Origin: Thermoanaerobaculia bacterium
Lineage (GTDB): Bacteria; Acidobacteriota; Thermoanaerobaculia; Gp7-AA8
Length of the DNA stretch: 64,000 nt
Assembly: GCA_034664845.1 (NCBI GenBank)
Contig: JAXDGW010000010.1
Coordinates: 58,936-122,935, forward strand
Reading direction: 5' to 3'
Part shown: in pieces, positions 32,008 through 47,512 of the stretch
How the letters are laid out: the number at the start of each line of letters is the position of its first letter
How positions within the stretch are numbered: position 1 is the first letter of the stretch
Position numbers and translations under genes: made by a program
The notes under the pieces: generated by a model
Database searches by the model: none
Seen by the model: the letters and a program-made list of their open reading frames with translations, nothing else
What the model was told of the DNA's origin: nothing

Positions 32008-32121
32008 CAGTCTTGCGTCCCGGGGACTCACCGGACGGGCTTCGCCCCCTTCGGTATACACACCGAGAGATCAGCACGGGAAAGCGACCCGCTTCGCATG
32101 TTCCTTCGCCGGCAGCCCGCG

Positions 32122-32478
32122 TCAGGCGGACCGGTCCGGCGTGATCACCAAACGGCGCACCTCTTCGGAAAGGTGCGTGATCTCCTCCGCCAGCCGATCG
32201 TATTCATCGCGCTTGCGGCGGAGGAAGGCGCGCGTGACGTCGATCTTTTCCTCGATTCCGCGAGGTGTGAGGACGTACAGGTACGCCGACTTGTTGTTGC
32301 TGTTGCGGAAGTTCCGAACCTTGACCCACCCCTTCTCGACGAGGGCCTTGAGGCAGTAGTTCGCTTTGCCGATGCTGACGCCGAGCGCCCGCGCCACCTG
32401 ACGTTGGGTGGCAGTGGGATGCTCCTCGATGTAGCTGAGAAGGCGGTAGCGGATCTCATCCGTCGGGTCGTAGGTCAT
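32122..32478 (-). CDS. EPS-associated MarR-family winged-helix transcriptional regulator
   Basis: 118 aa. RYRLLSYIEEHPTATQRQVARALGVSIGKANYCLKALVEKGWVKV...YLYVLTPRG matches the small MarR-type regulators found in exosortase/PEP-CTERM EPS loci. Confidence 0.65.
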   Translation of the reverse strand: MTYDPTDEIRYRLLSYIEEHPTATQRQVARALGVSIGKANYCLKALVEKGWVKVRNFRNSNNKSAYLYVLTPRGIEEKIDVTRAFLRRKRDEYDRLAEEITHLSEEVRRLVITPDRSA

Positions 32479-32545
32479 CGGTCGTGTTCAACTGTTGAAC
32501 GCACCACGATTTAACCATTACGCTCCGCCGAAAGCAACGCCACGG

Positions 32546-33127
32546 TCACCGCTTTGCGCGGCGAAGAACCGGCCGCTCAAACTCGACGGCCAGGTTCTTC
32601 CGCAGCAGAGAAACCGAGACGACGAGGCGATCGCCGCGGGCGCTGCGGACGACCACGCCCGAATAGCCGGAGAACGGACCTTTCATGATCGTGACGACGT
32701 CGTCCGGCAGAAGGTCTTCATAAACCTCGAACGATGCGCCGGCGAGTTGGAGCCGGCGGATCTGCGCGAGCTGTGCGCCGAGCAGGTCCTGATCTTCGAC
32801 CTCGATGATGCGTACCGTCACGCCGCTCCGCAGCGCGACATCACGTCCCCGCGCGTCCCCGCGCAGGAATACGTATCCCGGAAACAGCGGGACGTACGAG
32901 CGAAAACGCCGCGACGATCGTTCCGAGACGTGCTCGACCTGCGGGAGATAAAACGGGATTTGCTGATCGAGCAGGCGGCGAGCCAGGACCTTTTCCTGGC
33001 GGCTCCGCACATGCGTGACGTGCCAGGGGAAGGAATCCGCGGTCAGCGCGAAGAGATCGTCGGGAAAAAGGTCGGCTTCTTTCGGGAGCAGCGGCATGGC
33101 GGCTGCGAACAGCATCACCCCCGGCAC
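32546..33127 (-). CDS. NusG/RfaH-paralogue transcription antiterminator (UpxY/LoaP-like)
   Basis: NGN domain WHVTHVRSRQEKVLARRLLDQQIPFYLP...FPGYVFLRGD and KOW motif GDVVTIMKGPFSGYSGVV. It is the first gene of the minus-strand glycan operon. Confidence 0.7.
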   Translation of the reverse strand: MPGVMLFAAAMPLLPKEADLFPDDLFALTADSFPWHVTHVRSRQEKVLARRLLDQQIPFYLPQVEHVSERSSRRFRSYVPLFPGYVFLRGDARGRDVALRSGVTVRIIEVEDQDLLGAQLAQIRRLQLAGASFEVYEDLLPDDVVTIMKGPFSGYSGVVVRSARGDRLVVSVSLLRKNLAVEFERPVLRRAKR

Positions 33128-34800: not shown

Positions 34801-35710
34801 GGAGCAGAGCGGCGGGCGCAAGTTCGCCGCTCTCTTCAAGGAGATCTCCCGCTCCCAGCACGCCGGCAAGTGCGATTCGCACGACCGCGCGGCCCTTGAA
34901 AAATCTCTGGATCTACTGCTGCGGATCGGAAGCGAACTGGGGGTCACGATTGGGCCGGCCAGCCGGGTTCTCGATTTCGGCTGTGGTCTCGGCGAGACGG
35001 TCGAGATCCTGCTTTCGCGGGGCATCGAGGCTTACGGTGTCGACGTCGGCGAGTGGTGGGGAAAGGATTTCGACGCCTATTGGCAAAAGGGTGATCTTCC
35101 TGCCGCCGGCGTTCTGGCACGTTTGCATTCCATCAACGAAGACCGCTATGTGTTGCCCTTTCCGGACGACTCGTTCGATTTGATCATCAGCACCGCTACG
35201 TTCGAGCACGTGTTCAACTACGAAACGGTCTTTCGCGAGATTCACCGCGTGCTCAAGCCGACAGGGATTTCCGTCAACATTTTCCCAGGACGCTGGTCGC
35301 CGGTGGAGCCTCACGTCGGCATTCCGATCATTCCGCTTTGCAAACACAATTGGTGGCTGGCACTCTGGGCTCTGCGACGGGGCACAGGAGTTGGCTGGCG
35401 CGAGCACTACCACTCCTTGCAGGGCACCATGAAACTCACTTGCTATCCGACGCGCAAGCAGGTCCGTCGCTACGCAGCCGCAGCCGGGGCGCATCTCGAA
35501 TTCTGCGAACGGCTCTATGTCGCTCTCTCAGCCTCAAGGCCTAACCGCATCGTGCGAGCGGCGAGCCGCTTCGGTCTGGGAAGGGTTGTTTCCGCCGCCG
35601 TGGAGCGGGTTTGCCAAAGGACGATGGTTCTGCGAAAACGTACCGCGCCGGGGCTCGATTCGCGGGGCGTCGGGAGAGCGTCCGCACAGCACGGAGCGAT
35701 CACGCCCTGA
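34769..35710 (+). CDS. Class I SAM-dependent methyltransferase
   Basis: RVLDFGCGLGETVEIL (motif I) and DLIISTATFEHV. The start may be M7 at 34787. Confidence 0.6.
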   Translation: MKRSAPMDNPEEQSGGRKFAALFKEISRSQHAGKCDSHDRAALEKSLDLLLRIGSELGVTIGPASRVLDFGCGLGETVEILLSRGIEAYGVDVGEWWGKDFDAYWQKGDLPAAGVLARLHSINEDRYVLPFPDDSFDLIISTATFEHVFNYETVFREIHRVLKPTGISVNIFPGRWSPVEPHVGIPIIPLCKHNWWLALWALRRGTGVGWREHYHSLQGTMKLTCYPTRKQVRRYAAAAGAHLEFCERLYVALSASRPNRIVRAASRFGLGRVVSAAVERVCQRTMVLRKRTAPGLDSRGVGRASAQHGAITP

Positions 35711-37037
35711 CCACATCGAGTCCGGCAACGCCGCGCGGGACGATGTTGCGCGTATCGATGGCCAGGCGCACCTTCGCCCAGAGTGACGGATCTCTGAACT
35801 GCGTGTGCGGCGTCGAAACGACGACCGCGTCATATTGACCGATCGCTTCCGCGGTGCAGGGAATCGACCGCAGCCCCACGTCGTGCTTCCGCCCCCGCCG
35901 AGCCTGCGGTACGTAAGGATCACAGTACGCGACCACAGCACCTCGGGCCTGCAGCATCTCGATCAACTCGAACGACGGCGACTCGCGGTCGTCATCGATG
36001 TCGGGCTTGTACGAGAGCCCCATCACCAGCACCGTCGCGCCGACGATGCTCTTGCCGTGTTTGTTCACCGCCTCGACCGTGCGGTCGACGACGTAGCGCG
36101 GCATCGAGGCATTGACCTCGCCTGCCAGTTCGATGAAACGGGCCCACGTCCCATACTCGGCGGCCTTCCACGTGAGGTAAAACGGATCGAGTGGAATGCA
36201 GTGCCCGCCCAGACCAGGGCCCGGATAGAACGGCATGAAGCCGAACGGTTTCGTCTTTGCTGCCTCGATGACTTCCCACACGTCGATGCCCATCCGCTCA
36301 AAGACAACCTTCATTTCGTTCACGAGAGCGATGTTCACGGCGCGAAAAATGTTCTCGAGGAGCTTGGCGGACTCCGCGACCTCCGTCGAGGAAACAGGAA
36401 CGACGCGATCGACGACGGCGCTATAGAGCTCCGTGGCTGCGCGAAGGGAGGGAGCGTCGATCCCGCCGACGACTTTCGGGATGTTCCGCGTGTTGAAGCG
36501 CTCGTTCCCGGGATCTTCGCGCTCGGGAGAGAAGCCGACAAAGTAGTCGCGGCCGCAGACAAGGCCACGCGCCTCAAAGCGCGACAGAAGCTCCTCGCGC
36601 GTCGTACCGGGGTAGGTGGTCGATTCGAGTACGACGATCTGCCCCGGCCGCAGGCGCCGCGCGATCTCTTCCGCCGTAATGCGGATGTACCGCAGATCGG
36701 GCTCGCGGTGCGTACCCAGTGGCGTCGGTACGCAGATGAGGATCGCGTCACAGTCGGCGAGGCGGTCGAAGTCGGCCGTGGCAAAGACCTTCTCGTTGCC
36801 AAACGCTTTGGCGATTCGTTCCCGGCCGATGTGCCGGATGTAGGTCTCGCCCGCGTTGAGCATCCCGGTCTTCGTCGTATCGACGTCGAAGCCCGTCACC
36901 GGGAAGCCGGCCTCCTCGAAAAGGAGAACGAGCGGAAGTCCGACGTAGCCGAGGCCGATCACGCCGATGCGAGCGGAGCGCGCTCGGATCGATTCGATCA
37001 ACGTGTCGATTCTTTGCGGGCCGGATGTCGCGGTCAT
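35700..37037 (-). CDS. UDP-N-acetyl-D-hexosamine 6-dehydrogenase (WecC/WbpA/Cap5O-type nucleotide-sugar dehydrogenase)
   Basis: [18 protein letters not shown] (NAD Rossmann), CVPTPL and [12 protein letters not shown] (catalytic Cys). The start at MTATSG gives an ATGA overlap with the epimerase gene. Confidence 0.8.
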
Positions 37038-38044
37038 CGGTCGATTCCGTAGTAGGCACGATACCAATCGACGAACCGGGCGATCCCGTCACGAATCGTC
37101 GTCGATGGACGAAACCCGACCGCGGACTCCAGCTCGGAGACGTCGGCCATCGTCGACGGCACATCACCCGGCTGCATGGGCAGCAGCTCCATCGTTGCCT
37201 TGCGTCCCAATGCTTCCTCCAGCGCGGCAATGAAGTCGAGCAGCGGAACGGGCTGGTTGTTGCCGATATTGAAGATGCGGTATGGCGCAAAGCTTCTTGC
37301 CGGATCGGGAGCGTCGCCGCTCCAGGCCGGAGCCGGTACGGCCACGGAATCGATCACCCGGATGACGCCTTCGACGATGTCATCGATGTAGGTGAAGTCG
37401 CGAATCATCCGGCCGTAGTTGTAGACCTCGATCGGCTCACCGTTGAGTATCCCCTTCGTGAATTTGAATAGCGCCATGTCGGGCCTGCCCCACGGGCCGT
37501 AAACGGTAAAGAAACGCAATCCGGTGCACGGAAGGTTGAAGAGAGCCGCGTACGTGTGCGCCATCAGCTCATTGGCTTTCTTCGTAGCCGCGTAAAGGCT
37601 GACCGGATGATCGACGTTGTGATGCTCGGAGAATGGCTGCGCGGTATTCGCGCCGTAGACTGAGCTCGATGACGCGAAGACAAGGTGCTCGATACCGTGA
37701 TGCCGGCTGCCCTCGAGGATGTTCAGGAACCCCTGCACGTTCGCGTCGATGTACGCCTGAGGGTTCACCAGGGAGTAGCGCACGCCCGCTTGAGCGGCCA
37801 GGTTGACGACGCGCTGCGGCTTGATGTCACTGAAGAGCCGGCGCATCCCGTCCGCATCGGCGATATCGAGACGCTCGAAACGAAAGCCGCTCCCGGTCAG
37901 ACGTGCCAACCGCGCTTCTTTCAACTTCGGATCGTAGTAGTCGTTGAGATTGTCGACGCCGATCACCTCGTCGCCACGCGCGAGTAGACGTTGAACGACG
38001 TGGTATCCGATGAAACCGGCCGCGCCGGTGACGAGGGCCTTCAA
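37034..38044 (-). CDS. NAD-dependent nucleotide-sugar 4-epimerase (UDP-glucuronate/UDP-GlcNAcA 4-epimerase, CapI/WbpP-like)
   Basis: [38 protein letters not shown] and SSSSVYG...YAATKKANE (Y-x3-K). Confidence 0.8.
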
Positions 38045-38064: not shown

Positions 38065-39807
38065 TTACTGGAGGTAGCCGAGCGATTTCAACTTCTCGAT
38101 CGTCTCGCGGTCCAGTCTTCGGGTCATGGCGTCTCGAACCTCCGCCGGCGACCCTTTCAGGTTGGACATGAAGAGTCCGAAGTACGGATCGGCGTCGCGC
38201 GCACGATCGAGCATCCCGGCTGCAAGTGCACGTTTCCTGGATCGAATCGCGAGAAGGTCAACCTGTTCAGCGCGATCCGCACGGACATCGTAGAGTCGCA
38301 CCGGAGACCCGGCAAGCACCCTGCTGACTCTGTTCCCGAAATGCAGCAACTTGTAGATGCCATCCGGCGTCAGCTCGATCCGTCCCCAGTAAAAGACCCC
38401 CAGCCGCTCGAGATCTTCGACATCTTTTTTCAGTACGGCCCCTCGATCATCCTTTTGACTGGCCAGTAATTGATGGACGGCATCCGTGTACGTGAGCGCG
38501 GAGACCGAACTTACCTGCATCGATTTTCGCTTCGTCACGGCGAACATGTTCATCGAGTCGGAAGCAGGGCCGGTTCCGAAGTCTTCGCCGAGAAGATAGC
38601 CAAGAGTCCTCACGAAATCGGCATGACTGACGAGGCGGTCGGCGACACGCCCCGGCAGGATCGCTCCGTTTTCTGTGTAGTAGAGCAGCGGTACATGCAG
38701 CGTCGATTCGAACGGACTGGGCCAGTGCTCGCCGTGGAAGCCGTGATCGTAAGACTCGCCATGGTCGGCCGTGATGACGAAGAGCGTTTTCTTCGTCAGT
38801 CCGCGTGCTTTGAAATCGTCAAAGAGCTGCTTGAGCGCGGCGTCCGCCTCGCTGAGATTGGCGTCGTAGTAAGCGAATTGGTTGGCGCGGAATGCACCTG
38901 AATCGACGGCACCCAACGCCAGTTGTTCCTCCGTGGGGCCCTTCGGGGCTTTACCCGCCGGCAGCGTTTTCGAATGCCGGCGGAGAAACTCTTCGGCGAT
39001 GGGAGTCACCGGCGCGTGCCCTCCCTTCAGGTGAATCATCGCGAAGAACGGCTTGCCGGAGGAGAGCAGCGGCAGACAATGCTCCCTGAATTGCTGGTAC
39101 GAAACGCGATTCGAGCTCCACGGCCGCGTTGCCGCGTCGGGACCAACCGGGTATTCGAAGTGATCGAATCCCCGCTCCATCTTGTTCAGGTCGTGCAGAA
39201 AGAACGCGACCGTGCTTCCAACGGTCACATATCCCCGCTTTCGCAACTCCTCGGGAAGCCAGAACACGCCCGGGGCAAGCGGCACACCGTTGTAGAGCAC
39301 TCCGTGTTTCGGCGGCACGAGACCCGACAGGAGCGTCGCGTGTGCCGGCGAGGTCGAGCCGGTGATCGTGTACGCGTGCATGACGAGCAGACCCTTGCGC
39401 GCGAGCGAGTCGAAGTAGGGCATCGTGCGCGGCGATCCACCGTATGCGCCGATGCGCGCAGCATCCGTGGCGTCGAGCGTGATGAGAACGACGTTCCACC
39501 CATCGAGGGAGCCGAGGCGCGGAGTTGGGGACGAGGCCGCGGAACCGAGGAGAAGGAGTGCGATGAAGGGAAGTGCGAGTCTTAGAGAGTGAATCCCGCC
39601 TTCCTTCCGTCGTCGTGAAACATCTTCACGGTTTCGAGCGAGTAGTCGTCGAGGTCCTTCCCCATCAGACTCAGCTTCTTGAGAATGTCGTTCGTCACCG
39701 TGATGATGTGACAGCCGATGGCGTCGGCTTGCAGGATGTTGAGCAACTCGCGAGGGCTCGCCCAGATCAGTTCGGCGCTGGGAGCAGCTTTCAGGATGCT
39801 CAGGCAT
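38065..39807 (-). CDS. Alkaline-phosphatase-superfamily 'sulfatase-like' hydrolase/transferase with Thr nucleophile (phospho-substituent transferase candidate)
   Basis: Signal/TM LRLALPFIALLLLGSAASS. The conserved block VVLITLDATDAARIGAYGG...TGSTSPAHATLLSGL has T-S-P-A-H in place of the formylglycine C/S-x-P-x-R motif, as in LtaS/MdoB/EptA-type transferases. The only canonical in-frame start is the ATG at 39807, which forces a 226-bp overlap with the transaldolase gene, so the true start is uncertain. Confidence 0.5.
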   Translation of the reverse strand: MPEHPESCSQRRTDLGEPSRVAQHPASRRHRLSHHHGDERHSQEAESDGEGPRRLLARNREDVSRRRKEGGIHSLRLALPFIALLLLGSAASSPTPRLGSLDGWNVVLITLDATDAARIGAYGGSPRTMPYFDSLARKGLLVMHAYTITGSTSPAHATLLSGLVPPKHGVLYNGVPLAPGVFWLPEELRKRGYVTVGSTVAFFLHDLNKMERGFDHFEYPVGPDAATRPWSSNRVSYQQFREHCLPLLSSGKPFFAMIHLKGGHAPVTPIAEEFLRRHSKTLPAGKAPKGPTEEQLALGAVDSGAFRANQFAYYDANLSEADAALKQLFDDFKARGLTKKTLFVITADHGESYDHGFHGEHWPSPFESTLHVPLLYYTENGAILPGRVADRLVSHADFVRTLGYLLGEDFGTGPASDSMNMFAVTKRKSMQVSSVSALTYTDAVHQLLASQKDDRGAVLKKDVEDLERLGVFYWGRIELTPDGIYKLLHFGNRVSRVLAGSPVRLYDVRADRAEQVDLLAIRSRKRALAAGMLDRARDADPYFGLFMSNLKGSPAEVRDAMTRRLDRETIEKLKSLGYLQ

Positions 39808-40319
39808 TCGGTCATGATGGGAATCGGATCCCGGCCGGTATCGGCGATGCGGCCGGCGAAGACTGAGACGCAGGAGGGCACACTTGCGTTTACAGCACCG
39901 GCGACATTGCGCACCTGATCGATCGTCATGATGGCGGTGATATTCAGCTTCACCCCATCATTCGAAAGTCGCCGCACGAGCTCGTACGCCGGCTCGCGGC
40001 GCGTGTTCGTGACGGGGATCTTGACGTAGACGTTGCCGCCCCACGTGGCAATCTCGCGCGCCTGCCGCTCCATCTCGTCGAATTCATCCGAGAAGACCTC
40101 GAACGAGATGGGCCGGTCGGGGATTGCAGCGACGATGTCATGCGCGAACGCGCGGTAGTCGGTCAGCCCCACCTTGTGCATCAACGTTGGATTGGTAGTG
40201 AAGCCTTTGATGTACGGTTTGGCGTACATCTCCAGCATGCCGGCCTTATCCGCGCCATCGGCGAAGATTTTCACGTTGAGGTCTTCAAGAGGTTTGGTCA
40301 CTGGTTTTCGAGAATCCAA
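39582..40319 (-). CDS. tal: Transaldolase / fructose-6-phosphate aldolase family (short TalC/FSA type)
   Basis: VKIFADGADKAG...GFTTNPTLM...VYVKIPVTNTRREP. The Schiff-base lysine region (VKIP) is typical of the about 220-aa class. The start may be the GTG near 40274. Confidence 0.75.
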   Translation of the reverse strand: MDSRKPVTKPLEDLNVKIFADGADKAGMLEMYAKPYIKGFTTNPTLMHKVGLTDYRAFAHDIVAAIPDRPISFEVFSDEFDEMERQAREIATWGGNVYVKIPVTNTRREPAYELVRRLSNDGVKLNITAIMTIDQVRNVAGAVNASVPSCVSVFAGRIADTGRDPIPIMTECLSILKAAPSAELIWASPRELLNILQADAIGCHIITVTNDILKKLSLMGKDLDDYSLETVKMFHDDGRKAGFTL

Positions 40320-40840
40320 TCTGCGGCCGCTGCGAGTGAAGGAACGCGGACGAACGGAGCCTCCGGCTGCCGCTCGCGATACCCATTATCGACGAAAAGA
40401 CACCGGCAACCGGCACGCTGGCCGGCTTCGATGTCGCGCCAGCGATCTCCCACCATGAACGAGCGCTCGACCTCGACGTCGTGCCGTCGTGCAGCGGCGA
40501 GGATCGCTCCCGGCTTTGGCTTCCGGCAGTCACAGTCGTCGCCGTCGTGAAAGCACGTCAGCACTTCGTCGATCGCCAGCTCTGAAGCCAGCCGCTCGTG
40601 CATGGCCTCGACCTTGTCCCGCGTCTGCGTTCCGCGCGCGACGTCCGGCTGATTCGTAATCACGATCAGGCGGAACCCAGCACTGCGCAGCTTGCTCAGC
40701 GCATCCGCGACGCCGGAGAGCACTTCCAACTCATCGACGCTTTCCGGCGGGTGAGGTTTTCCGTCACGCACGATGGCGCGGTTGATGACGCCGTCCCGAT
40801 CGAGAAAGACGGCGCGCGCCACTACCGGGTCGACTCCCAT
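40298..40840 (-). CDS. gmhB: D-glycero-D-manno-heptose 1,7-bisphosphate phosphatase (HAD-IIIA, GmhB-like)
   Basis: AVFLDRDGVINR (DxDGT/V motif I), VITNQ and GDRWRDIEAGQRAG. 180 aa. Confidence 0.8.
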   Translation of the reverse strand: MGVDPVVARAVFLDRDGVINRAIVRDGKPHPPESVDELEVLSGVADALSKLRSAGFRLIVITNQPDVARGTQTRDKVEAMHERLASELAIDEVLTCFHDGDDCDCRKPKPGAILAAARRHDVEVERSFMVGDRWRDIEAGQRAGCRCLFVDNGYRERQPEAPFVRVPSLAAAADWILENQ

Positions 40841-41433
40841 TTTGTCTCGGCGGCTTTCAATTTCGGATGCGACACCAGCAGGTGCCAGATCACGGCTTGA
40901 AACGCTTCCGTGTGCGGGGTGACGTTCTGCGGATTCACGGTGGGAACGATGACGCAGGCGTCCGCAACTTTCGCTGTGTAGCCTCCATCGCGACCAACGA
41001 TGCCACAGATCGTCGCACCAACCTCTTTCCCGTATTCGAGGGCGGCTACGAGGTTGGGGCTCACATTTTTCTCCCGATCGCCACCGCCGACTGAGAGAAC
41101 GAAGAGCAGGTCCTCCGGGCGCAACCTGCTAACCTTCAGCCATTCGATGAACACCGACGCCCAGCCATCATCGTTCGTGCGCGCGGTCAGTTCGCTGACG
41201 TTGTCGGTCGGGGCATACGCCTCGATGCCGCAGATCTTGCGGAAGTCATTCACAGCGTGGGAGCAGTTGGCCGCGCTACCGCCGACGCCGAGCAGAAAAA
41301 GACGGCCATGCCGCTCCCGCAGCTCGGCGAGGAGGGCGGCTGTTCGTTCGATCGAATCGGCGTCGAGCGCAGCAATGATCGCGGCCGCTTCCTGAAGATG
41401 TCGTTGTGCGTAGCTCATCGGCGAGAGCGCCAT
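40822..41433 (-). CDS. gmhA: Sedoheptulose-7-phosphate isomerase (SIS domain, GmhA)
   Basis: RLFLLGVGGSAANCSHAVNDF...LLFVLSVGGG...ICGIVGRDGG. Confidence 0.85.
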   Translation of the reverse strand: MALSPMSYAQRHLQEAAAIIAALDADSIERTAALLAELRERHGRLFLLGVGGSAANCSHAVNDFRKICGIEAYAPTDNVSELTARTNDDGWASVFIEWLKVSRLRPEDLLFVLSVGGGDREKNVSPNLVAALEYGKEVGATICGIVGRDGGYTAKVADACVIVPTVNPQNVTPHTEAFQAVIWHLLVSHPKLKAAETKWESTR

Positions 41434-41449
41434 TGTAGCGGGCTGTCAC

Positions 41450-42430
41450 TCACGACATGAGCACTTTGGTACCCTCGAAATCGAAACGGAACCGCACCTC
41501 TTCCAGTCCTGCCTCACTCATCGCCCTTCGCAATCCCGTTCGATCCTCGGCGTAAAACAACAGGAACCCACCACCGCCGGCACCGACCAGCTTCCCTCCG
41601 ATGGCGCCGCTGCGGCGTGCGAGCTCGTACCACTCATCGATCTGCGGATTGCTCATTCCGCGCGAGCGCCGCTTCTTGTGCTCCCAATGCTCGTGCAGCA
41701 GCTCTCCGAACTCATGACACCGGCCAGCCTCGAGCGCGCTCTGGCTGCGGTAACCAAGATCCTTGACGTAGTGGAGGTTGTCGATCATCTCGGGATCTGC
41801 CTCTTCGGAACGCGTTTTCTGATCCTGCAGGAGGCTTCCCGCGCTTCGTGAAAAGCCGGTGAAGAAGAGGAGGAGATTGTCCTCGAGCTCGAACAGCGTA
41901 TCCATCGCCAGCGTCAGAGGCCGCGCCGCAACCGAGCCGTCGGGATGAAAATCGAAGCAGGTCACTCCGCCGTATGCCGCGATGTACTGATCCTGCTTCC
42001 CGACCGGCTCATGCAACCGTTCGATCTCAATCTCGCAGGCCAGCCGCGCCACCTCACTCGAATGCAGCAGCCGCCGCCGGTGGGCGTAAAGCGCCTTGAC
42101 CAGCGCGGTGGTGAAGCTCCCTGACGACCCGAGGCCGGTGCCGGATGGGATCTCGGCGAGCGTGGTGATCTCGATCTGCGGCGTGCGCAGGTTCATCATC
42201 CGCAGTGCCTCGCGCAGGATCGGATGCCGCACTTCATCGACAGTGTCGACGTTCTCGATGTCGGAGTACTTCAGACGGATGCCCGCGCCGAAAGGACGGT
42301 TGACGGTAACGTAGACGTAGCGGTCGATGGCCGCGGCGATGAGGAATCCACCGAATTTCTCGTAGTACGAAGGCAGGTCCGTACCACCGCCACCCAGACT
42401 GATCCGGAGGGGGCTGCGCGTGATGATCAT
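41450..42430 (-). CDS. GHMP-family sugar kinase, D-glycero-D-manno-heptose 7-phosphate kinase (HddA/WcbL-like)
   Basis: MIITRSPLRISLGGGGTDLP...PSGTGLGSSGSFTTALV (GHMP motif 2) ... GAGGGGFLLFY (motif 3). Confidence 0.75.
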   Translation of the reverse strand: MIITRSPLRISLGGGGTDLPSYYEKFGGFLIAAAIDRYVYVTVNRPFGAGIRLKYSDIENVDTVDEVRHPILREALRMMNLRTPQIEITTLAEIPSGTGLGSSGSFTTALVKALYAHRRRLLHSSEVARLACEIEIERLHEPVGKQDQYIAAYGGVTCFDFHPDGSVAARPLTLAMDTLFELEDNLLLFFTGFSRSAGSLLQDQKTRSEEADPEMIDNLHYVKDLGYRSQSALEAGRCHEFGELLHEHWEHKKRRSRGMSNPQIDEWYELARRSGAIGGKLVGAGGGGFLLFYAEDRTGLRRAMSEAGLEEVRFRFDFEGTKVLMS

Positions 42431-42552: not shown

Positions 42553-44229
42553 TCAGCCGCGAATCCGCATCGCCCCAAGCAACGCCAAGATTCCCGCGAG
42601 GGCCACCAAGACCCACATCGAGGCGGCTGGGATCACCGCCGGATTGACCGTGGTGATCGCTAACGTGGAGGTGTTGTTCGCTGGATTCAAATCCGTCTCC
42701 GTCGCTGTCACGGTTGCCGTATTCGCGATCGGCCCAGGCGTTGACGCGCTAGTCAACGTGAGACTGATCGTCGCGCTACTCCCGTTCGTCAACGCGCCGA
42801 GTACGCAAGTCACCGTCGTCGTTCCGCTACACGACCCCAGCGACGACGTCGCGGAGACGAACGTGGTGCCCGCCGGAAGCACATCCGTGACAGTCACATT
42901 GTTCGCCGCCCCAGGACCATTGTTGACGACCGCGATGGTGTAAGTGATGTTTCCGCCGGCAGGAAAGAGCGGCCCGCCGGTGATGGACTTTGTGATGTTG
43001 AGGTCTGGTGCCGGGACGAAAACTAACGCAGCACCGGCGTTATTGCTGTCATTTGGCGCTCCCAGAATGGCCGTGAAGCCATCGGCAGAAAGGGACACAG
43101 CATTGCCTTCGAAAGCGGTCCCTATTAAGTCAAAACCAACCAGCTTCGAGGACTGCTGAGTCCAAATCACGCCGTTCCTTTTCCAGACCCAGGCCGCCCC
43201 GACGTCATTGTTGTCGCGTGGACCGCCGATGAGGGCGGTATTGCCGTTTGCCGAGATAGATACGGAATCGCCCTGTCGAGAGAATCCCCCGAGAACGCCA
43301 GAGCCGACCAACTTGGTTCCCTGTTGAGTCCAGACTCCTCCGACTCTCGTCCAGACCCACCCGGCACCAACGACATTGTCGTCATATGCTCCTCCGACAA
43401 GGGCCGTGTTGCCATCGGCCGAGAGAGACACGGCGGTACCTTGTTGAGCGTTACCCACCGCCCCGGAACCGACCAGTTTGCCTCCCTGTTGAGTCCACAC
43501 TCCTCCACTTCTGGTCCATACCCAAACTGCCCCATCGGTGTTGTTATCGAAGGGGCCGCCAACAATCGCTGTATTGCCGTCACCGGACAGGCATACGGAT
43601 GTGCCTTGGATCGCATTACCCATGGCTCCCGAACTCACGAGTTTGGTCCCCTGCTGAGTCCACAACCCGCCCGTTCTCGTCCAAATCCACGCCGCCCCAA
43701 CAGAATTATCGGCTGGTCCGCCTATAATGGCCGTGTTGCCATCGGCGGCCAGTGATACGGCAACGCCCTGTTCGCTAGGATTCATAGCACCTGAACCAAC
43801 TAGTTTGGATCCCTGCTGTGCCCAGACACCTCCGCTCCTTGTCCAGACCCAAGCAGCCCCAGCATCATTGTTGTCACTGGGCCCTCCGACAATGGCCGTG
43901 TTGCCGTCGGCCGATATGGAGACGCTGTATCCTTGACTCTGAGGGCCAACGCCCCCTGACCCGACAAGCTTTGGTCCTTGCTGCGTCCAAACTCCTCCGC
44001 TTCTTACCCAAACGAACGCGGCCCCAATGTAGTCGTTGTCATTGAGGCCTCCAACGATGGCCGTGTTGCCATCGGCAGAGAGCGCCACAGATCTGCCTTG
44101 AGCAGCGTTTCCTGCGGCCCCTGTCGCGACCAGCTTAGGACCCTGCTGCGAGAACTGCGCGAAGGCCGAACGAGAAAGCAACGTTGCGGCGAAAAGGGCG
44201 ATCAACGCAATAGAATGGCGCCGTTTCAT
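42553..44229 (-). CDS. Secreted tandem-repeat (beta-propeller-like x9) + DUF11/CARDB-like protein with C-terminal IPTL/PEP-CTERM-type sorting signal
   Basis: Signal peptide MKRRHSIALIALFAATLLSRSAFAQ. Nine repeats of about 48 aa (QQG-KLVGSGA-G---QG-SVSLSADGNTAIVGGP-DNN-GAAWVWTRSGGVWTQ). A DUF11-like domain (NITYTIAVVNNGPGAANNVTVTDVLPAG). A C-terminal tail NPAVIPAASMWVLVALAGILALLGAMRIRG made of a short motif, a TM helix and a basic end. Confidence 0.6.
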   Translation of the reverse strand: MKRRHSIALIALFAATLLSRSAFAQFSQQGPKLVATGAAGNAAQGRSVALSADGNTAIVGGLNDNDYIGAAFVWVRSGGVWTQQGPKLVGSGGVGPQSQGYSVSISADGNTAIVGGPSDNNDAGAAWVWTRSGGVWAQQGSKLVGSGAMNPSEQGVAVSLAADGNTAIIGGPADNSVGAAWIWTRTGGLWTQQGTKLVSSGAMGNAIQGTSVCLSGDGNTAIVGGPFDNNTDGAVWVWTRSGGVWTQQGGKLVGSGAVGNAQQGTAVSLSADGNTALVGGAYDDNVVGAGWVWTRVGGVWTQQGTKLVGSGVLGGFSRQGDSVSISANGNTALIGGPRDNNDVGAAWVWKRNGVIWTQQSSKLVGFDLIGTAFEGNAVSLSADGFTAILGAPNDSNNAGAALVFVPAPDLNITKSITGGPLFPAGGNITYTIAVVNNGPGAANNVTVTDVLPAGTTFVSATSSLGSCSGTTTVTCVLGALTNGSSATISLTLTSASTPGPIANTATVTATETDLNPANNTSTLAITTVNPAVIPAASMWVLVALAGILALLGAMRIRG

Positions 44230-44453
44230 GATCATCAGTTTAGGCGGAACAAATGAAAGCTGAGCACTCACCACTACCCAAGGTTGGAAGAGGGCTAACA
44301 TCAGCCGACCAAAGGTACCGGCAATTCTTCGTGGCGACCTCCAGCTATCTTCAGCGGACTGCATCCGACACTCGCCGCCTCGACCGAGAGGTTCACGAAT
44401 CTAGGCATTGATGGCCCGGAAGCCGCCAAACGATTATCGGATCCGAGTGGTTC

Positions 44454-45320
44454 TTACTGCAGCGTAAGGAGCACCAGGATTTCGCCCCGTCCGTTCGGTA
44501 GCGACTCTAATGCCTTACCCAGGATTGTGCCTGGGCGATGCATTTCGATCTCGCCAACCTTCACCGGCACGGATCTCATGGCCATTCCTGAACCACCGCC
44601 GGTGACCAGAAGGTCGCCCACGTGAATACCCGTCTTCCCCGCGTCAACCATCACCTTTACGCGTCCGGTCGTTGCGATCTTACATTTGCCTGGAGCATCT
44701 TCACCCAGGATTACGCCCGGATTCTCCGAGACCACGCCGGCCACGGTAGTGTCGTAGGCTCGCGACGAAGCCATGACTTCGTTCGAATGCTCCTTGTTGA
44801 GAACGACGACCGTTCCAGCCTTCATCGCAGCGTTCGCCGGGACCCATTCAGCGACGTCCTGGTATTTCGCGGCAATGTTCCCATCGGCCATAATCGCTCC
44901 CGCCACGTGAAGCATCGCCTGGGGGTTCGTTGTGCCGATGCCAACGTTGCCGCCATTCGTGACTACCATCTTTGTAGTTTCGGGACTATTGCCGGTATTG
45001 AAAAAGATGCTACCAACGCCGTTGTAGGCATTAAGAATAAAGTTACCCGTGGTACCTCTGAAGACGATATCGCCTGGCACCGCGGTCGTCGAGAACTGCC
45101 CCGCGCCGGCAGCGACGGCGAGGATTCCATCCTGCCCCGTCCGACCGACATTGTAGCCGGCATAGGCACCCGCATTGAGGCTGAACACCTGAGCGATCGT
45201 GCTGCCATTGTGTGAGTACTGGATCGTCCCGTTAGCATCCGGCGGGGTCCATTGGGCAAAACAGGGGACTGCGACGAGAAGCGCCACTAACATCATCAGA
45301 CCACGTGTTCGCGAATTCAT
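44454..45320 (-). CDS. Secreted protein with tail-fibre/collar-like domain
   Basis: Signal peptide MNSRTRGLMMLVALLVAVPCFAQ. NGGNVGIGTTNPQAMLHVAG is a motif typical of phage-tail-fibre-like cell-surface proteins. The C-terminal Gly-rich beta region is unassigned. Confidence 0.35.
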   Translation of the reverse strand: MNSRTRGLMMLVALLVAVPCFAQWTPPDANGTIQYSHNGSTIAQVFSLNAGAYAGYNVGRTGQDGILAVAAGAGQFSTTAVPGDIVFRGTTGNFILNAYNGVGSIFFNTGNSPETTKMVVTNGGNVGIGTTNPQAMLHVAGAIMADGNIAAKYQDVAEWVPANAAMKAGTVVVLNKEHSNEVMASSRAYDTTVAGVVSENPGVILGEDAPGKCKIATTGRVKVMVDAGKTGIHVGDLLVTGGGSGMAMRSVPVKVGEIEMHRPGTILGKALESLPNGRGEILVLLTLQ

Positions 45321-45662: not shown

Positions 45663-46607
45663 TCAAGAATCCCGCGCCACTCTCCCATTCTCGCCAAACC
45701 ACGCCATTGTTTTCATCAATCCCTCGCGAATCGAGAGAGGCGCGTTGAGGGTGGCCAGCGTTCTCAAGCGGCCACCATCGAGAACACTCCGCATCTGTTC
45801 TCCTGCTTTTGCTTCACCATGAGTCGGCGCGTCCCCCACTCCGGCGGTCGAGGCCAGAATCTCGTACACCTCATTGATCGATGTCTCGACGCCCGTGCCG
45901 ACGTTGTATTCGCCCTGCCAGTCGCCATCGGACGCAGCCAGATTCGCGGCAACGACATCTCCGACGTAGACGAAATCGCGCGTCTGCGTTCCGCTTCCGT
46001 TGATCACGACCGGCTGTCCTTCGAGCAGGCGTCCGGCAAAGATGGCCACAACTCCCGCTTCCCCCTGCGCGTTTTGCCTTGGTCCGTAGACGTTGGCGTA
46101 GCGCAAGGCGACGGATGAGAGGCCGCGCACGACGCGAAAGTAGTGTAGATAGTGCTCGACGGCGAGTTTGGCGCAGCCATACGGCGAGAGCGGCGCGGTT
46201 GGATGCGATTCGTCCTGCAGCCCTCCGACCGGCTCCCCGTAGATCGCGCCGCCGGTCGACGCAAACACGACGCGCTTCACGCCGGCATCGGCGGCCGCTT
46301 CGAGCAAGCGCAACGTTCCGACGACATTCACATCGGCATCGTTGGCCGGATCCTCAACCGATTTGCGAACGTCCATCTGCGCGGCGTGATGACTGATGAC
46401 ATCGGGCTTGAGCGTGCGAATGAGATGGCCCGCGGCGGCATCGCGAATATCAATCTGGTGAAACTCCGCATGTGGGTTGAGGTTGCGGCGGTCGCCGCCG
46501 GAAAGGTTGTCGATGATCGTGACGCGGTCGCCGCGCTCGACGAAGGCGTCAGCAAGGTGTGAGCCGATGAAGCCCGCGCCGCCGGTGATCACGACGTGCA
46601 TGGTCAT
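45663..46607 (-). CDS. NAD-dependent epimerase/dehydratase (UDP-glucose 4-epimerase GalE-like)
   Basis: [34 protein letters not shown] and [13 protein letters not shown] (Y-x3-K). Confidence 0.75.
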
Positions 46608-47512
46608 GCCGGTGTTGCCGCGGCGCGCGCTGCGCGCTGCGCTTGCTCCTCGAGCAGGCTGAAAAGGTAGCGGCCGTACGTGCTCTTGGCGAGCTTCGTG
46701 GCCAGGTCACGCATTTGCTGCGCGTCGATGAGCCCGAGGTAGTAGGCAACTTCTTCGGGGCAGGCGATCTTCAACCCCTGCCGCAACTCGACGGTCTCGA
46801 CGAAATTGGCGGCCTGCAACAGCGACTCCTGCGTTCCCGTATCGAACCAGGCGTAGCCGCGGCCGAGCTGCTCCACGCGCAGTTCGCCCATCTCCAGATA
46901 GACGCGATTCAGATCGGTGATCTCCAACTCGCCGCGCTTCGAAGGCTTCAGATTCGCGGCGAAGTCGCAGACGCGCTCGTCGTAAAAATAGAGTCCCGTG
47001 ACGGCGAAGTTGGAGCGCGGCTTCTCCGGCTTTTCTTCGATGCTGATGGCGCGGCCGCTTTCATCGAACTCCGCCACACCGTAACGCTCCGGATCGTTCA
47101 CGCGATAGACAAAGACGGTCGCGCCACGGTCGCCTTTGGCGGCTCGCCGCAGCGAGTCCGGCAAACCGTGACCGTAGAAGATGTTGTCGCCCAGGATCAG
47201 GCAGCTCGGCTCCCCGGCAACGAAATCACGTCCGATCAGAAACGCCTGCGCCAGTCCGCCCGGATCGGGCTGCGCTGCATATTCGAGCCGGATTCCCCAC
47301 TGCGATCCGGATCCCAGCAGCTTCTGAAAACTCGCCTGATCCTCGGGCGTGGTGATGATCAAAAAGTCAGTGATGCCGGCGAGCATGAGCGTCGTCAACG
47401 GGTAATAAATCATCGGCTTGTCGTACACGGGCAACAACTGTTTCGACATCGCCGACGTCATCGGATAGAGCCGCGTGCCCGAGCCGCCGGCCAGAATGAT
47501 CCCTTTTTTCAA
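46604..47512 (-). CDS. rfbA: Glucose-1-phosphate thymidylyltransferase
   Basis: (TTG)[46 protein letters not shown]... is near-canonical RmlA. The TTG start at 47510-47512 overlaps the rhomboid TGA (TTGA). The long ORF N-terminal to it is Arg-rich noise. Confidence 0.85.

What the first reader, a model, noticed from the sequence alone, without database searches (positions are those of the whole stretch)
38065..42430. Heptose (GDP-D-glycero-D-manno-heptose-type) pathway with its own transaldolase and a Thr-nucleophile 'sulfatase-like' transferase
The gene order is hddA-like GHMP kinase (41450..42430), gmhA (40822..41433), gmhB (40298..40840), a short-type transaldolase/FSA (39582..40319) and an alkaline-phosphatase-superfamily enzyme (38065..39807). 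A dedicated transaldolase would supply sedoheptulose-7-P directly from F6P and E4P, which is rare in heptose clusters. The last enzyme has T-S-P-A-H where sulfatases have C/S-x-P-x-R. It is therefore likely a phospho-group transferase (phosphoglycerol or phosphoethanolamine type) that decorates the polymer, not a sulfatase. No heptose-1-P nucleotidyltransferase is adjacent. RfbF, RmlA or a gene elsewhere may serve instead.
Basis: partly seen in the sequence, partly recalled or inferred. Interest (0 to 1): 0.55.

Follow-up and report, generated by a model that had tools for sequence, protein, structure and literature searches.

The report
Transaldolase-primed higher-sugar nucleotide pathway cassette
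The kinase, isomerase, phosphatase and transaldolase genes form one conserved module, found in many bacterial phyla and sometimes fused, that probably builds an unusual 7- or 8-carbon sugar for a surface glycan; the neighbouring "sulfatase" is a lineage-specific add-on that cannot be a sulfatase.

Summary
All five genes exist on the minus strand of a Thermoanaerobaculia (Acidobacteriota) glycan locus. Two starts need correcting: the transaldolase (TAL) starts at 40301, and the sulfatase-like gene near 39594, not 39807.

The kinase, isomerase and phosphatase are only distant relatives of HddA, GmhA and GmhB. All score below NCBI's equivalog cut-offs.

The TAL is not housekeeping by chance. In 65 of 79 loci from very diverse phyla, its orthologue (62-84% identity) lies within 2.5 kb of the same SIS and/or HAD genes. 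HAD-TAL and TAL-SIS fusion proteins exist.

Outside this lineage the cassette also carries a 231-aa nucleotidyltransferase, an epimerase, an NDP-sugar dehydrogenase, a Gfo/Idh/MocA oxidoreductase and an SDR. This is the enzyme-family set of the lincosamide GDP-octose pathway (LmbR/N/P/K/O/M/L/Z). No curated model or paper I searched describes it.

I favour a TAL-made ketose phosphate other than pool sedoheptulose-7-P, most likely octulose-8-P. This is inferred. A heptose remains a strong rival.

The sulfatase-like protein has Thr and His where sulfatases have the formylglycine Cys/Ser and Arg. It has an S1-sulfatase fold and only a signal peptide. Most relatives lack it, so it is an accessory esterase or transferase of unknown substrate.

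The parts
41450..42430 (-). GHMP-family sugar-phosphate anomeric kinase (HddA/WcbL-like, LmbP-like role)
   Evidence: Pfam GHMP_kinases_N and _C. NF049969 HddA scores 166 bits against a cut-off of 600. Best PDB matches are 3K85, WcbL 4USK and 4N3O at 137-176 bits. 91-94% identical in the closest Thermoanaerobaculia relatives (L001-L004, L008-L010), more conserved than TyrRS. 70% identical to the kinase of the Methylococcales cassette.
40822..41433 (-). SIS_2 ketose/aldose phosphate isomerase (distant GmhA relative, LmbN-like role)
   Evidence: PF13580 at 37 bits. gmhA TIGR00441 at 48.5 bits against 209. GmhA structures match at only ~45 bits. The His...Asp/Glu...Glu...His positions of the GmhA Zn/catalytic site are kept, but the phosphate loop reads SVGGGDREKNVSPN instead of STSGKSPN. 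It lies next to TAL in 62 of 79 loci. It is fused to TAL in P0249, with 54% identity.
40298..40840 (-). HAD-IIIA sugar bisphosphate phosphatase (GmhB-like, LmbK-like role)
   Evidence: TIGR01656 at 135.6 bits, above cut-off. GmhB NF006506 at 125 bits against 178. Overlaps SIS by 19 nt and TAL by 4 nt (GTGA). Fused to TAL in P0241, P0245, P0257 and P0266.
39582..40301 (-). Transaldolase of the TIGR02134 type, the proposed first committed step
   Evidence: TIGR02134 at 345 bits against 282. The Schiff-base Lys sits in VYVKIP. Phe, not Tyr, sits in SVFAGR, which is the transaldolase state rather than the F6P-aldolase state; the residue is read and its significance is from memory. Orthologues at 62-84% identity occur in 80 loci of many phyla, nearly always beside SIS/HAD.
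38065..39594 (-). Accessory secreted alkaline-phosphatase-superfamily enzyme with Thr nucleophile (TSPAH); S1-sulfatase fold; not a sulfatase
   Evidence: PF00884 at 136 bits, PF01663 at 48 bits over the N-terminal part only. Thr lies at the fGly position and His at the Arg position. Family invariants are D, T, H, H, DH and H. One N-terminal hydrophobic segment only. AF2 pLDDT 87.7; the nearest folds are S1 sulfatases at TM ~0.6. Present at this position only in L005/L006, at another position in L007, and absent in L001-L004 and L008-L010.
46604..47512 (-). RmlA-type nucleotidyltransferase, syntenic candidate for activating the sugar-1-phosphate in this lineage
   Evidence: TIGR01207 at 486 bits against 361. 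TTG start overlaps the rhomboid stop. Close relatives read NTP-transferase, epimerase, GHMP, SIS, HAD, TAL without interruption. The link is not universal: it is relocated in L012 and not found at this position in L015/L016.
45663..46607 (-). SDR epimerase/dehydratase (314 aa) immediately upstream of the kinase in relatives
   Evidence: PF01370 at 208 bits; no equivalog cut-off is reached. 30-35% identical to the cassette epimerase of L030.
42553..45320 (-). Two-gene insertion (FG-GAP/DUF11 surface protein of 603 aa, plus a secreted 288-aa protein) that splits the operon in this genome only
   Evidence: Pfam, hydrophobic N-termini. Absent between the epimerase and the kinase in L001-L005 and L008-L010.
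35700..38044 (-). Separate downstream module: 336-aa SDR epimerase (UDP-glucuronate 4-epimerase-like) plus nucleotide-sugar 6-dehydrogenase
   Evidence: TIGR03026 at 410 bits and PF01370 at 197 bits. It follows TAL directly in relatives. It is only 25-30% identical to the cassette DH/epimerase of L030, so it is not orthologous. The UDP-GlcA 4-epimerase assignment rests on the NDYYDPKLK motif, which I recalled from memory.

Best explanation
GHMP kinase, SIS isomerase, HAD phosphatase and TAL form one translationally coupled module. It is the reduced Thermoanaerobaculia version of a cassette spread by horizontal transfer through many phyla.

Proposed mechanism:
1. The TAL transfers the C3 dihydroxyacetone unit of fructose-6-P (or S7P) onto an aldose phosphate. 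I think the acceptor is most likely ribose-5-P, giving octulose-8-P, as LmbR does.
2. The SIS enzyme isomerises the ketose phosphate to the aldose phosphate.
3. The GHMP kinase phosphorylates C1.
4. The HAD enzyme removes the terminal phosphate.
5. A nucleotidyltransferase makes the NDP-sugar for the surface glycan encoded by the rest of the locus. Here that enzyme is unassigned; the syntenic RmlA-type gene is the best candidate.

Shown: gene content, coupling, conservation, fusions, and the parallel in enzyme families. Inferred: the reaction order, the acceptor, and therefore the chain length (C8 rather than C7).

The sulfatase-like gene is a lineage-specific accessory. It encodes a secreted metalloenzyme that works through a phospho-threonine (not formylglycine) intermediate on an unknown phosphoester of the envelope or glycan.
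For: Coupling in the window: the gaps are GHMP/SIS 16 nt, SIS/HAD -19, HAD/TAL -4 (GTGA) and TAL/AP -13.

Conservation:
- The same order occurs in L001-L006 and L008-L016.
- The GHMP kinase is 91-94% identical in the closest relatives, against 86.5-93% for TyrRS.
- TAL orthologues lie beside SIS and/or HAD in 65 of 79 loci from Acidobacteriota, Chloroflexota, Omnitrophota, Methylococcales, Rhizobiales, Legionellales, Planctomycetota, Cyanobacteria, Chlorobium, Pelagibacteraceae and others. Six of the 14 exceptions have under 300 bp of contig upstream of TAL.

Fusions: HAD-TAL occurs in two clusters with 4 and 6 full-length 430-aa members from independent assemblies, plus two singletons. One TAL-SIS fusion also exists.

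Full cassette: epimerase, NDP-sugar DH, SDR, Gfo/Idh/MocA, GHMP, 231-aa NTP-transferase, SIS, HAD, TAL. It is found in L030, Rhizobium jaguaris (L090), Lawsonia (L088) and at least 12 other loci.

Lincosamide parallel: these are the same families as LmbM/L/Z/P/O/N/K/R (PMC4351081 table; PMC12945683). LmbR makes octulose from ribose-5-P plus F6P or S7P (PMC5854111).

Best non-lincosamide hits of the Ccb proteins: for CcbK, CcbZ, CcbO, CcbN and CcbP these were Acidobacteria and Sorangium proteins (PMC4351081 S1). Those are taxa where this cassette is common.

Misfit with heptose enzymes: the kinase, isomerase and phosphatase all miss the heptose equivalog cut-offs, and the isomerase has a rebuilt phosphate loop.
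Against: - No Lmb/Ccb sequence could be obtained, so relatedness to them rests on family membership and on published best-hit tables.
- LmbR/CcbR is a 222-aa classical short transaldolase, a different subfamily from this 239-aa TIGR02134 type.
- The nearest characterised relatives that could be compared are heptose enzymes.
- TIGR02134 transaldolases are ordinary pentose-phosphate enzymes in Firmicutes (and the model's own name).
- The window's variant lacks the 231-aa nucleotidyltransferase and the DH/Gfo/SDR tailoring genes.
- In a third variant the triad is paired with an HldE-like enzyme, which is typical of ADP-heptose synthesis.
- No octose has been reported from glycans of any carrier, as far as my literature searches reached.
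Confidence: 0.5

Rival explanations
1. This is a D-glycero-D-manno-heptose nucleotide pathway (GmhA/HddA/GmhB type). The co-transcribed transaldolase only boosts or channels sedoheptulose-7-P from F6P and E4P.
For: - The nearest characterised homologues of the kinase, isomerase and phosphatase are heptose enzymes.
- The GmhA catalytic/Zn positions are retained.
- TIGR02134 enzymes are bona fide transaldolases whose normal products include S7P.
- Variant 3 pairs the triad with an HldE-like kinase/adenylyltransferase.
- Heptoses are common in glycans; octoses are not known there.
Against: - S7P is already supplied by transketolase in every carrier.
- I know of no characterised heptose cluster that carries a transaldolase, and my literature searches found none.
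- An auxiliary gene would not be expected to be retained in >80% of loci across phyla, or to be fused to the phosphatase or isomerase.
- All three enzymes fall well below the equivalog cut-offs.
- The full cassette carries the DH plus Gfo/Idh/MocA pair that, in the lincosamide pathway, modifies GDP-octose on the way to lincosamide (PMC12945683).
Confidence: 0.32
2. The transaldolase is simply the cell's housekeeping pentose-phosphate enzyme and sits in the glycan operon by chance.
For: It passes the TIGR02134 'transaldolase' equivalog cut-off. It is highly conserved, at 84-96% identity across many MAGs. Whether these genomes hold another tal gene could not be checked.
Against: - Its conservation is no higher than that of its neighbours; the kinase is more conserved.
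- Linkage to SIS/HAD holds across many phyla with otherwise unrelated flanks.
- Gene fusions with HAD and SIS exist.
- Its start overlaps the HAD stop.
Confidence: 0.03
3. For the sulfatase-like gene, the first reader's reading: a phosphoglycerol or phosphoethanolamine transferase that decorates the polymer, in the manner of LtaS, EptA or MdoB.
For: - Thr nucleophile with intact metal ligands.
- Exported.
- Always found inside glycan loci: next to TAL in the window and L005/L006, and among GT2, flippase and methyltransferase genes in L007.
- A related TLPSH-motif protein with an N-terminal multi-TM domain lies inside the cassette of L013.
Against: - The window protein has only a signal peptide, with no lipid-binding TM domain.
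- The top-ranked structural neighbours are all soluble S1 sulfatases and phosphonate monoester hydrolases; none is LtaS or EptA.
- It is missing from most genomes that carry the module.
- A hydrolase role, such as a phosphodiesterase trimming a phospho-linked glycan or scavenging phosphate, fits the architecture at least as well.
Confidence: 0.25

Closest known systems
Lincosamide GDP-octose pathway of Streptomyces lincolnensis / S. caelestis (LmbR transaldolase, LmbN isomerase, LmbP kinase, LmbK phosphatase, LmbO guanylyltransferase; tailoring by LmbM, LmbL, LmbZ, LmbS)
   Same: It is the only characterised pathway I know in which a transaldolase is co-encoded with a SIS isomerase, a GHMP kinase, a HAD phosphatase and a nucleotidyltransferase. 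The full cassette in other phyla also has the epimerase, the UDP-Glc-DH-family enzyme and the Gfo/Idh/MocA enzyme (PMC4351081; PMC12945683; PMC5854111).
   Different: - The transaldolase belongs to another subfamily: TIGR02134 at 239 aa, against the 222-aa classical type.
- There is no aminotransferase inside the cassette; an SDR stands there instead.
- The context is envelope-glycan loci (GT2, LPG-synthase-TM, Wzy_C, flippase), not an antibiotic cluster.
- The window's version lacks the 231-aa nucleotidyltransferase and all tailoring genes.
- Sequence relatedness to the Lmb proteins was not tested here.
GDP-D-glycero-alpha-D-manno-heptose pathway (GmhA, HddA, GmhB, HddC) of Aneurinibacillus, Campylobacter, Burkholderia (WcbL/N/M) and Yersinia
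   Same: The same three enzyme families in the same logical order. The kinase matches HddA/WcbL structures at 137-176 bits.
   Different: All three enzymes score below the equivalog cut-offs. The SIS enzyme is only ~45 bits from GmhA and has an altered phosphate loop. No HddC is present. A transaldolase is an obligatory partner, which I know of in no heptose cluster.
TIGR02134 'Staphylococcus-type' transaldolase
   Same: Scores above the curated cut-off; the catalytic Lys, Asp, Glu and the Phe are present.
   Different: Firmicute members (for example Dolosigranulum, 47% identity) are annotated as ordinary transaldolases. I did not examine their gene neighbourhoods. The clade at 62-84% identity is embedded in, and sometimes fused to, the sugar-activation module.
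S1 formylglycine sulfatases, with Thr-nucleophile alkaline-phosphatase-superfamily enzymes (NPP, LtaS, EptA/MCR-1) as functional analogues
   Same: Sulfatase two-domain fold. The metal-binding Asp and Asp-His are kept. The T-x-P-x-H...GLxPxxHG nucleophile motif is as I recall it from NPP. The nucleophile is Thr, as in LtaS and EptA.
   Different: There is no C/S-x-P-x-R, so no formylglycine can form. There is no multi-TM domain. Only the first 66 of 342 PF01663 positions match. The family is annotated only as 'sulfatase-like hydrolase/transferase'.

Membership tests
GDP-/ADP-glycero-manno-heptose pathway | Sedoheptulose-7-P isomerase GmhA (equivalog HMM above cut-off) | tested here: not met
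   TIGR00441 scores 48.5 bits against 209.45, and NF010547 scores 41 against 320. The L030 orthologue behaves the same way.
GDP-/ADP-glycero-manno-heptose pathway | Heptose-7-P kinase HddA (equivalog HMM above cut-off) | tested here: not met
   NF049969 scores 166 bits against 600. It is still the best-scoring family, and the PDB matches are HddA/WcbL.
GDP-/ADP-glycero-manno-heptose pathway | Heptose-1,7-bisphosphate phosphatase GmhB (equivalog HMM above cut-off) | tested here: not met
   NF006506 scores 125 bits against 178, and TIGR00213 scores 98.6 against 149.6. Only the general HAD-IIIA domain models pass.
GDP-/ADP-glycero-manno-heptose pathway | Dedicated heptose-1-P nucleotidyltransferase (HddC or the HldE C-domain) in the cluster | tested here: not met
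   The window holds only RfbF and RmlA. The cassette's 231-aa enzyme in L030 scores 90.5 bits against 300 for HddC.
GDP-/ADP-glycero-manno-heptose pathway | The product is a heptose | not testable with these tools
   Needs enzymology or glycan analysis.
Lincosamide-type NDP-octose pathway | Transaldolase co-encoded with a SIS isomerase, a GHMP kinase and a HAD phosphatase | tested here: met
   for the window; across 79 loci; fusions.
Lincosamide-type NDP-octose pathway | ~230-aa nucleotidyltransferase (LmbO/CcbO type) in the cluster | tested here: not met
   Absent from the window. Present between the kinase and the isomerase in L030, L088, L090 and many other loci.
Lincosamide-type NDP-octose pathway | LmbM/LmbL/LmbZ-type tailoring set (SDR epimerase, UDP-Glc-DH family, Gfo/Idh/MocA) | tested here: not met
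   The window has no orthologues. They are present in the full cassette of other phyla and of Thermoanaerobaculia L013.
Lincosamide-type NDP-octose pathway | Sequence orthology to the Lmb/Ccb proteins | not tested
   No Lmb/Ccb sequence was reachable. Only lengths and best-hit taxa come from PMC4351081 S1. The TAL subfamily differs.
Lincosamide-type NDP-octose pathway | The transaldolase uses ribose-5-P to give octulose-8-P | not testable with these tools
   Biochemical assay needed.
TIGR02134 transaldolase | HMM above cut-off and catalytic residues present | tested here: met
   345 bits against 282. The Lys lies in VYVKIP; the Asp, Glu and Phe positions are aligned.
S1 formylglycine-dependent sulfatases | C/S-x-P-x-R motif for formylglycine | tested here: not met
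   T-S-P-A-H aligns to S-T-P-A-R. The Thr is invariant in the family.
S1 formylglycine-dependent sulfatases | Sulfatase fold | tested here: met
   The AF2 model (pLDDT 87.7) matches S1 sulfatases at E 1e-22 and TM ~0.6.
LtaS / EptA / MdoB lipid-donor phosphotransferases | N-terminal multi-TM domain plus a C-terminal Thr-nucleophile domain | tested here: not met
   There is one N-terminal hydrophobic segment only. A distant relative in L013 does carry a multi-TM domain.
Nucleotide pyrophosphatase/phosphodiesterase (PF01663) | T-x-P-x-H nucleophile motif and a full-length domain match | tested here: inconclusive
   The motif is present. PF01663 scores 48 bits, above the gathering score, but its best-scoring stretch covers only profile positions 1-66 of 342.

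The most novel reading that the evidence does not exclude
The window holds the core of an unrecognised, widely transferred pathway. In it a dedicated transaldolase builds a ketose phosphate longer than the cell's normal pool sugars: octulose-8-P or another higher sugar. The product is converted into an NDP-higher-carbon sugar for envelope glycans or glycolipids across very diverse bacterial phyla, including Rhizobium, Lawsonia and possibly Coxiella. This cassette would also be the evolutionary source of the lincosamide octose genes.
Probability: 0.45. Interest if true: 0.8.

Novelty: new variant of a known kind. Interest (0 to 1): 0.66.

Why it matters
If the transaldolase really primes the pathway, bacteria from many phyla make an activated higher-carbon sugar that no annotation pipeline recognises. 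PGAP calls the parts 'SIS domain protein', 'galactokinase' and 'transaldolase'.

That would have four consequences:
- It would add a new building block to envelope glycobiology.
- It would explain where the lincomycin octose genes came from.
- It would give a handle on unexplained O-antigen genes in pathogens such as Lawsonia and, possibly, Coxiella.
- It would show that TIGR02134 'transaldolase' calls inflate pentose-phosphate-pathway reconstructions in MAGs.

It is directly testable, because cultured carriers exist: Rhizobium jaguaris CCGE525 and Rhodoblastus sphagnicola DSM 16996.

The Thr-type sulfatase-fold family is a second, smaller open question. It is a large family with no known substrate.

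Tried and rejected
- An exact look-up of the window's TAL with the TTG start found nothing. The real start is GTG 40301.
- The primary LmbR/LmbN and LmbK/LmbO papers (PMC3486926, PMC3932030) are not held. No Lmb/Ccb sequence could be retrieved, so direct comparison was impossible.
- Literature searches for a transaldolase in heptose clusters, or for octose nucleotide sugars in polysaccharides, found nothing relevant.
- Bradyrhizose hypothesis: the 11-gene O-antigen operon of photosynthetic Bradyrhizobium might be this cassette. The published gdh primers and their encoded peptides match none of the loci, including the Bradyrhizobium MAG L028. Dropped.
- E. coli complete genomes hold nothing similar to the SIS-HAD-TAL DNA of an 'Enterobacteriaceae' MAG. 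No known O-antigen structure could therefore be used as a key.
- 'TAL is exceptionally conserved, hence housekeeping' is rejected. Its neighbours are as conserved or more so.
- 'The downstream epimerase plus dehydrogenase (35700-38044) are the LmbM/LmbL equivalents' is rejected. They are only 25-30% identical to the cassette's enzymes and look like a UDP-uronic-acid module.
- 'The sulfatase-like gene is a core part of the module' is rejected on synteny.
- The Streptomyces sp. 3211 plasmid TAL (50% identity) lies in an unrelated context.

Full report
**Setting**

The window has about 62% G+C. It carries one very long minus-strand glycan locus, from about 7.9 kb to 49.4 kb. The locus holds glycosyltransferases, a flippase, several aminotransferases and methyltransferases, Gmd/Fcl, RfbF, RmlA and an RmlC-like gene.

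The sulfatase-like protein is 100% identical to an NCBI protein from a Thermoanaerobaculia (Acidobacteriota) MAG, on a 147-kb contig. The closest transaldolases also come from Thermoanaerobaculia.

**Checking the observation**

All five ORFs exist where stated. Pfam and NCBIfam give the following.

| Coordinates | Family | Nearest specific model: score vs cut-off |
|---|---|---|
| 41450-42430 | GHMP kinase | HddA: 166 vs 600 bits |
| 40822-41433 | SIS_2 | gmhA: 48.5 vs 209 bits |
| 40298-40840 | HAD-IIIA | GmhB: 125 vs 178 bits |
| 39582-40319 | Transaldolase | TIGR02134: 345 vs 282 bits |
| 38065-39807 | PF00884 Sulfatase (136 bits) | plus the first 66 positions of PF01663 |

So the family calls are right. 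The three 'heptose' enzymes, however, are not members of the curated heptose equivalogs.

Two starts need correcting.
- **TAL.** It begins at GTG 40301, overlapping the HAD stop as GTGA. The 96%-identical P0001 begins at the same residue.
- **Sulfatase-like ORF.** It overlaps the TAL by 226 nt. That extension is an out-of-frame read of the conserved TAL 3' end, because it 'matches' genomes that lack the gene. Homologues begin about 10-15 residues before a signal peptide.
- **Candidate start.** No ATG, GTG or TTG lies in that stretch in the window. ATT at 39594, preceded by GGAAGGAAGG, would give a textbook signal peptide (MHSLRLALPFIALLLLGSAASS). The same arrangement is seen in L005.
- **PGAP's start.** Its downstream ATG (452 aa) removes the signal peptide and the conserved metal-binding Asp.

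**The module is conserved and the transaldolase belongs to it**

In close relatives (L001-L006, L008-L010) the order is: DegT, rhomboid, RmlA-type NTP-transferase, epimerase, GHMP, SIS, HAD, TAL, [sulfatase-like only in L005/L006], epimerase, NDP-sugar dehydrogenase, Gmd. Most junctions overlap.

The window differs in three ways.
- A two-gene insertion (42553-45320) separates the epimerase from the kinase.
- The sulfatase-like gene lies after the TAL.
- A block holding a methyltransferase, a 540-aa protein, a NusG paralogue and a MarR-like regulator lies before gmd.

Identities to those relatives:

| Protein | % identity |
|---|---|
| GHMP kinase | 93-94 |
| TAL | 86.5-87 |
| SIS | 86-87 |
| TyrRS | 86.5 |
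| HAD | 75-79 |

The TAL is therefore not unusually conserved relative to its neighbours.

A HMMER search of 1.84 billion representatives found 4361 relatives of the TAL. Several are fusion proteins.
- HAD-TAL fusions: P0241, P0245, P0257 and P0266. The first two clusters hold 4 and 6 full-length 430-aa members from independent assemblies.
- One TAL-SIS fusion: P0249.
- The HAD part is 35% identical, and the SIS part 54% identical, to the window's proteins.

A scan of 185,579 species genomes returned the 80 best loci, with TAL at 62-84% identity. They come from Acidobacteriota, Chloroflexota, Omnitrophota, Methylococcales, Rhizobiales, Legionellales, Coxiellaceae, Planctomycetota, Cyanobacteria, Gemmatimonas, Chlorobium, Pelagibacteraceae, Spirochaetia, Bacteroidia and others.

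In 65 of 79 usable loci, SIS and/or HAD lie within 2.5 kb of the TAL. Six of the 14 exceptions have under 300 bp of contig upstream of the TAL.

Chance placement of a housekeeping gene is therefore excluded. The patchy, cross-phylum distribution at high identity points to horizontal transfer of a glycan cassette.

**The full cassette**

In the Methylococcales MAG L030 the operon reads:

methyltransferase, GT2, LPG-synthase-TM protein, SDR epimerase (318 aa), UDP-Glc/GDP-Man-dehydrogenase family (443), short-chain dehydrogenase (291), Gfo/Idh/MocA (330), GHMP (336), NTP-transferase (231), SIS (199), HAD (188), TAL (238).

The nine genes from the epimerase to the TAL recur at 45-85% identity.
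- At least 12 of the 40 loci with enough flank have them, though two or three of those lack the dehydrogenase.
- Rhizobium jaguaris CCGE525 carries them on a chromid (L090).
- Lawsonia intracellularis carries them on plasmid 3. There PGAP names them only generically: 'SIS domain-containing protein', 'HAD-IIIA family hydrolase', 'transaldolase', 'galactokinase', 'nucleotidyltransferase family protein'.

None of the L030 proteins except the TAL reaches an NCBIfam equivalog cut-off.

A third variant (L049 and relatives) keeps SIS-HAD-TAL. It replaces the kinase and NTP-transferase with a reversed-domain HldE-like protein, and adds Gfo, DH, epimerases and a split transketolase.

**What it most likely does**

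The one characterised pathway with this family set is the lincosamide amino-octose pathway.
- LmbR transaldolase makes octulose-8-P from ribose-5-P plus F6P or S7P.
- LmbN isomerises it, LmbP phosphorylates it, LmbK dephosphorylates it, and LmbO makes GDP-octose.
- LmbM (epimerase), LmbL (dehydrogenase family), LmbZ/CcbZ (oxidoreductase) and LmbS (aminotransferase) then convert GDP-octose to GDP-lincosamide (PMC4351081; PMC5854111; PMC12945683).

The published best non-lincosamide hits of CcbK, CcbZ, CcbO, CcbN and CcbP were proteins of Solibacter, an uncultured acidobacterium, Acidobacterium and Sorangium. These are lineages in which the present cassette is common.

Four observations make a non-S7P ketose phosphate, most likely octulose-8-P, my preferred reading (about 0.5).
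- S7P is available in every cell (established knowledge).
- I know of no characterised heptose cluster that needs a transaldolase, and my searches found none.
- This cassette almost never lacks its transaldolase.
- The SIS enzyme has a rebuilt phosphate loop, SVGGGDREKNVSPN against STSGKSPN.

Only the gene content, the coupling, the conservation and the fusions are shown. The reaction order and the chain length are inferred.

The heptose reading stays at about 0.3, for these reasons.
- The only comparable characterised relatives are heptose enzymes.
- CcbR/LmbR is a different, 222-aa transaldolase type.
- Variant 3 uses an HldE-like activator.
- No octose is known from glycans of any carrier.

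**This lineage's version**

The window lacks the 231-aa NTP-transferase and the DH/Gfo/SDR genes. The RmlA-type gene (46604-47512) scores well above its equivalog cut-off. It lies two genes upstream of the kinase in close relatives, so it is the syntenic candidate for activation. The link is not universal, however (L012, L015, L016).

The epimerase and dehydrogenase downstream of the TAL are only 25-30% identical to the cassette's enzymes. They look like a separate UDP-uronic-acid module.

**The sulfatase-like protein**

- **Active-site motif.** Alignment to solved sulfatases puts Thr at the formylglycine position and His at the Arg position.
- **Conserved residues.** Thr, the metal Asp, the Asp-His pair and several His are invariant or nearly so in the family.
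- **Fold.** A confident AF2 model (pLDDT 87.7) is closest to S1 sulfatases and phosphonate monoester hydrolases (TM ~0.6, 15-19% identity). No LtaS, EptA or NPP structure is among the top-ranked matches.
- **Topology.** It has a single N-terminal hydrophobic segment.
- **Distribution.** Close homologues are essentially confined to Thermoanaerobaculia. More distant ones, often TPR-fused, are annotated 'sulfatase-like hydrolase/transferase'.
- **Position.** It lies after the TAL only in the window and L005/L006, and among GT2, flippase and methyltransferase genes in L007.
- **A membrane-bound relative.** A distant TLPSH-motif relative with a multi-TM N-terminus lies inside the cassette of L013.
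- **Rarity.** Elsewhere, AP-type genes near the cassette are rare.

It is thus an accessory, glycan-locus-associated, exported Thr-nucleophile metalloenzyme. It is not a sulfatase. Whether it hydrolyses or transfers a phospho group cannot be decided here.

**Novelty**

I found no curated family and no paper that describes this cassette. It is best filed as a new variant of the known NDP-heptose / NDP-octose activation logic, with a dedicated TIGR02134-type transaldolase as its hallmark. Cultured carriers make it directly testable.

Noticed in passing
window 39580-39620 (- strand): The sulfatase-like gene has no ATG, GTG or TTG between the TAL stop and its signal peptide. An ATT (39594-39592) behind GGAAGGAAGG, 13 nt inside the TAL, would give a canonical signal peptide. 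L005 has the same ATT/SD arrangement. NCBI's annotation starts 57 residues later and cuts off the signal peptide and the metal-binding Asp.
   Followed up: partly
window 42553-45320 (- strand): A two-gene insertion splits the operon between the epimerase and the kinase: a 603-aa FG-GAP/DUF11 protein with N- and C-terminal hydrophobic segments, and a secreted 288-aa protein with a weak Peptidase_G2 match. Relatives have these genes contiguous. A second FG-GAP protein (852 aa) lies at 23741-26299 inside the same glycan locus.
   Followed up: partly
window 32122-33127 (- strand); also L005 12642-13636: A NusG paralogue (193 aa) and a small MarR/HTH_24 regulator sit together just upstream of gmd, in the window and in L005/L006. 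This looks like a dedicated antitermination and regulator pair for the long glycan operon.
   Followed up: no
window 18006-23698 (- strand); also L007 679-3563: An unusual tailoring block: CmcI-type methyltransferase, 4-hydroxy-2-oxovalerate-aldolase-family (HMGL-like) enzyme scoring above cut-off, a DegT whose match covers only the N-terminal half, a 307-aa protein with no family, a methyltransferase and an ATP-grasp ligase. The HMGL-like, CmcI and DegT trio recurs in L007. This suggests a C-C bond-forming step on a sugar.
   Followed up: no
window 26383-32061 (- strand): A TylC3-type sugar C-methyltransferase, an RmlC-like 3,5-epimerase, RfbF (CDP-glucose), an Fcl-like reductase (below cut-off) and Gmd lie together. 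This implies further branched or deoxy sugars in the same glycan.
   Followed up: no
L049 8859-19911 (also L058, L061, L071, L073, L082, L087): A third cassette variant: SIS, HAD, TAL, two epimerases, a reversed-domain HldE-like protein (cytidylyltransferase-like N-terminus, PfkB C-terminus), Gfo/Idh/MocA, NDP-sugar DH, epimerase, methyltransferase, epimerase and transketolase N-terminal subunit. It resembles the published description of the Coxiella burnetii cbu0674-cbu0678 region, whose reversed HldE (cbu0678) is needed for phase I LPS (PMC5843353, PMC13552124). The C. burnetii sequence itself was not examined.
   Followed up: partly
L013 5674-7820: A multi-TM sulfatase-like gene (TLPSH motif, C-terminus ...LRALNYLQ like the window's ...LKSLGYLQ) lies between the Gfo and kinase genes of a Thermoanaerobaculia chromosome. 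It is split into two overlapping ORFs, which could be a frameshift, an assembly error or a pseudogene.
   Followed up: partly
L089 10676-13427 (Streptomyces sp. 3211 plasmid p3211-1): A TIGR02134-type transaldolase (50% identity) lies between a D-arabinono-1,4-lactone oxidase and the hexitol phosphatase HxpB, next to an MFS transporter. This is a different, non-cassette context for the enzyme type.
   Followed up: no
P0326 and P0291 (representatives): Other odd TAL fusions or gene-call mergers: a PDZ plus radical-SAM-like domain joined to a partial TAL (P0326), and a NUMOD3-motif N-terminus joined to a TAL (P0291).
   Followed up: no
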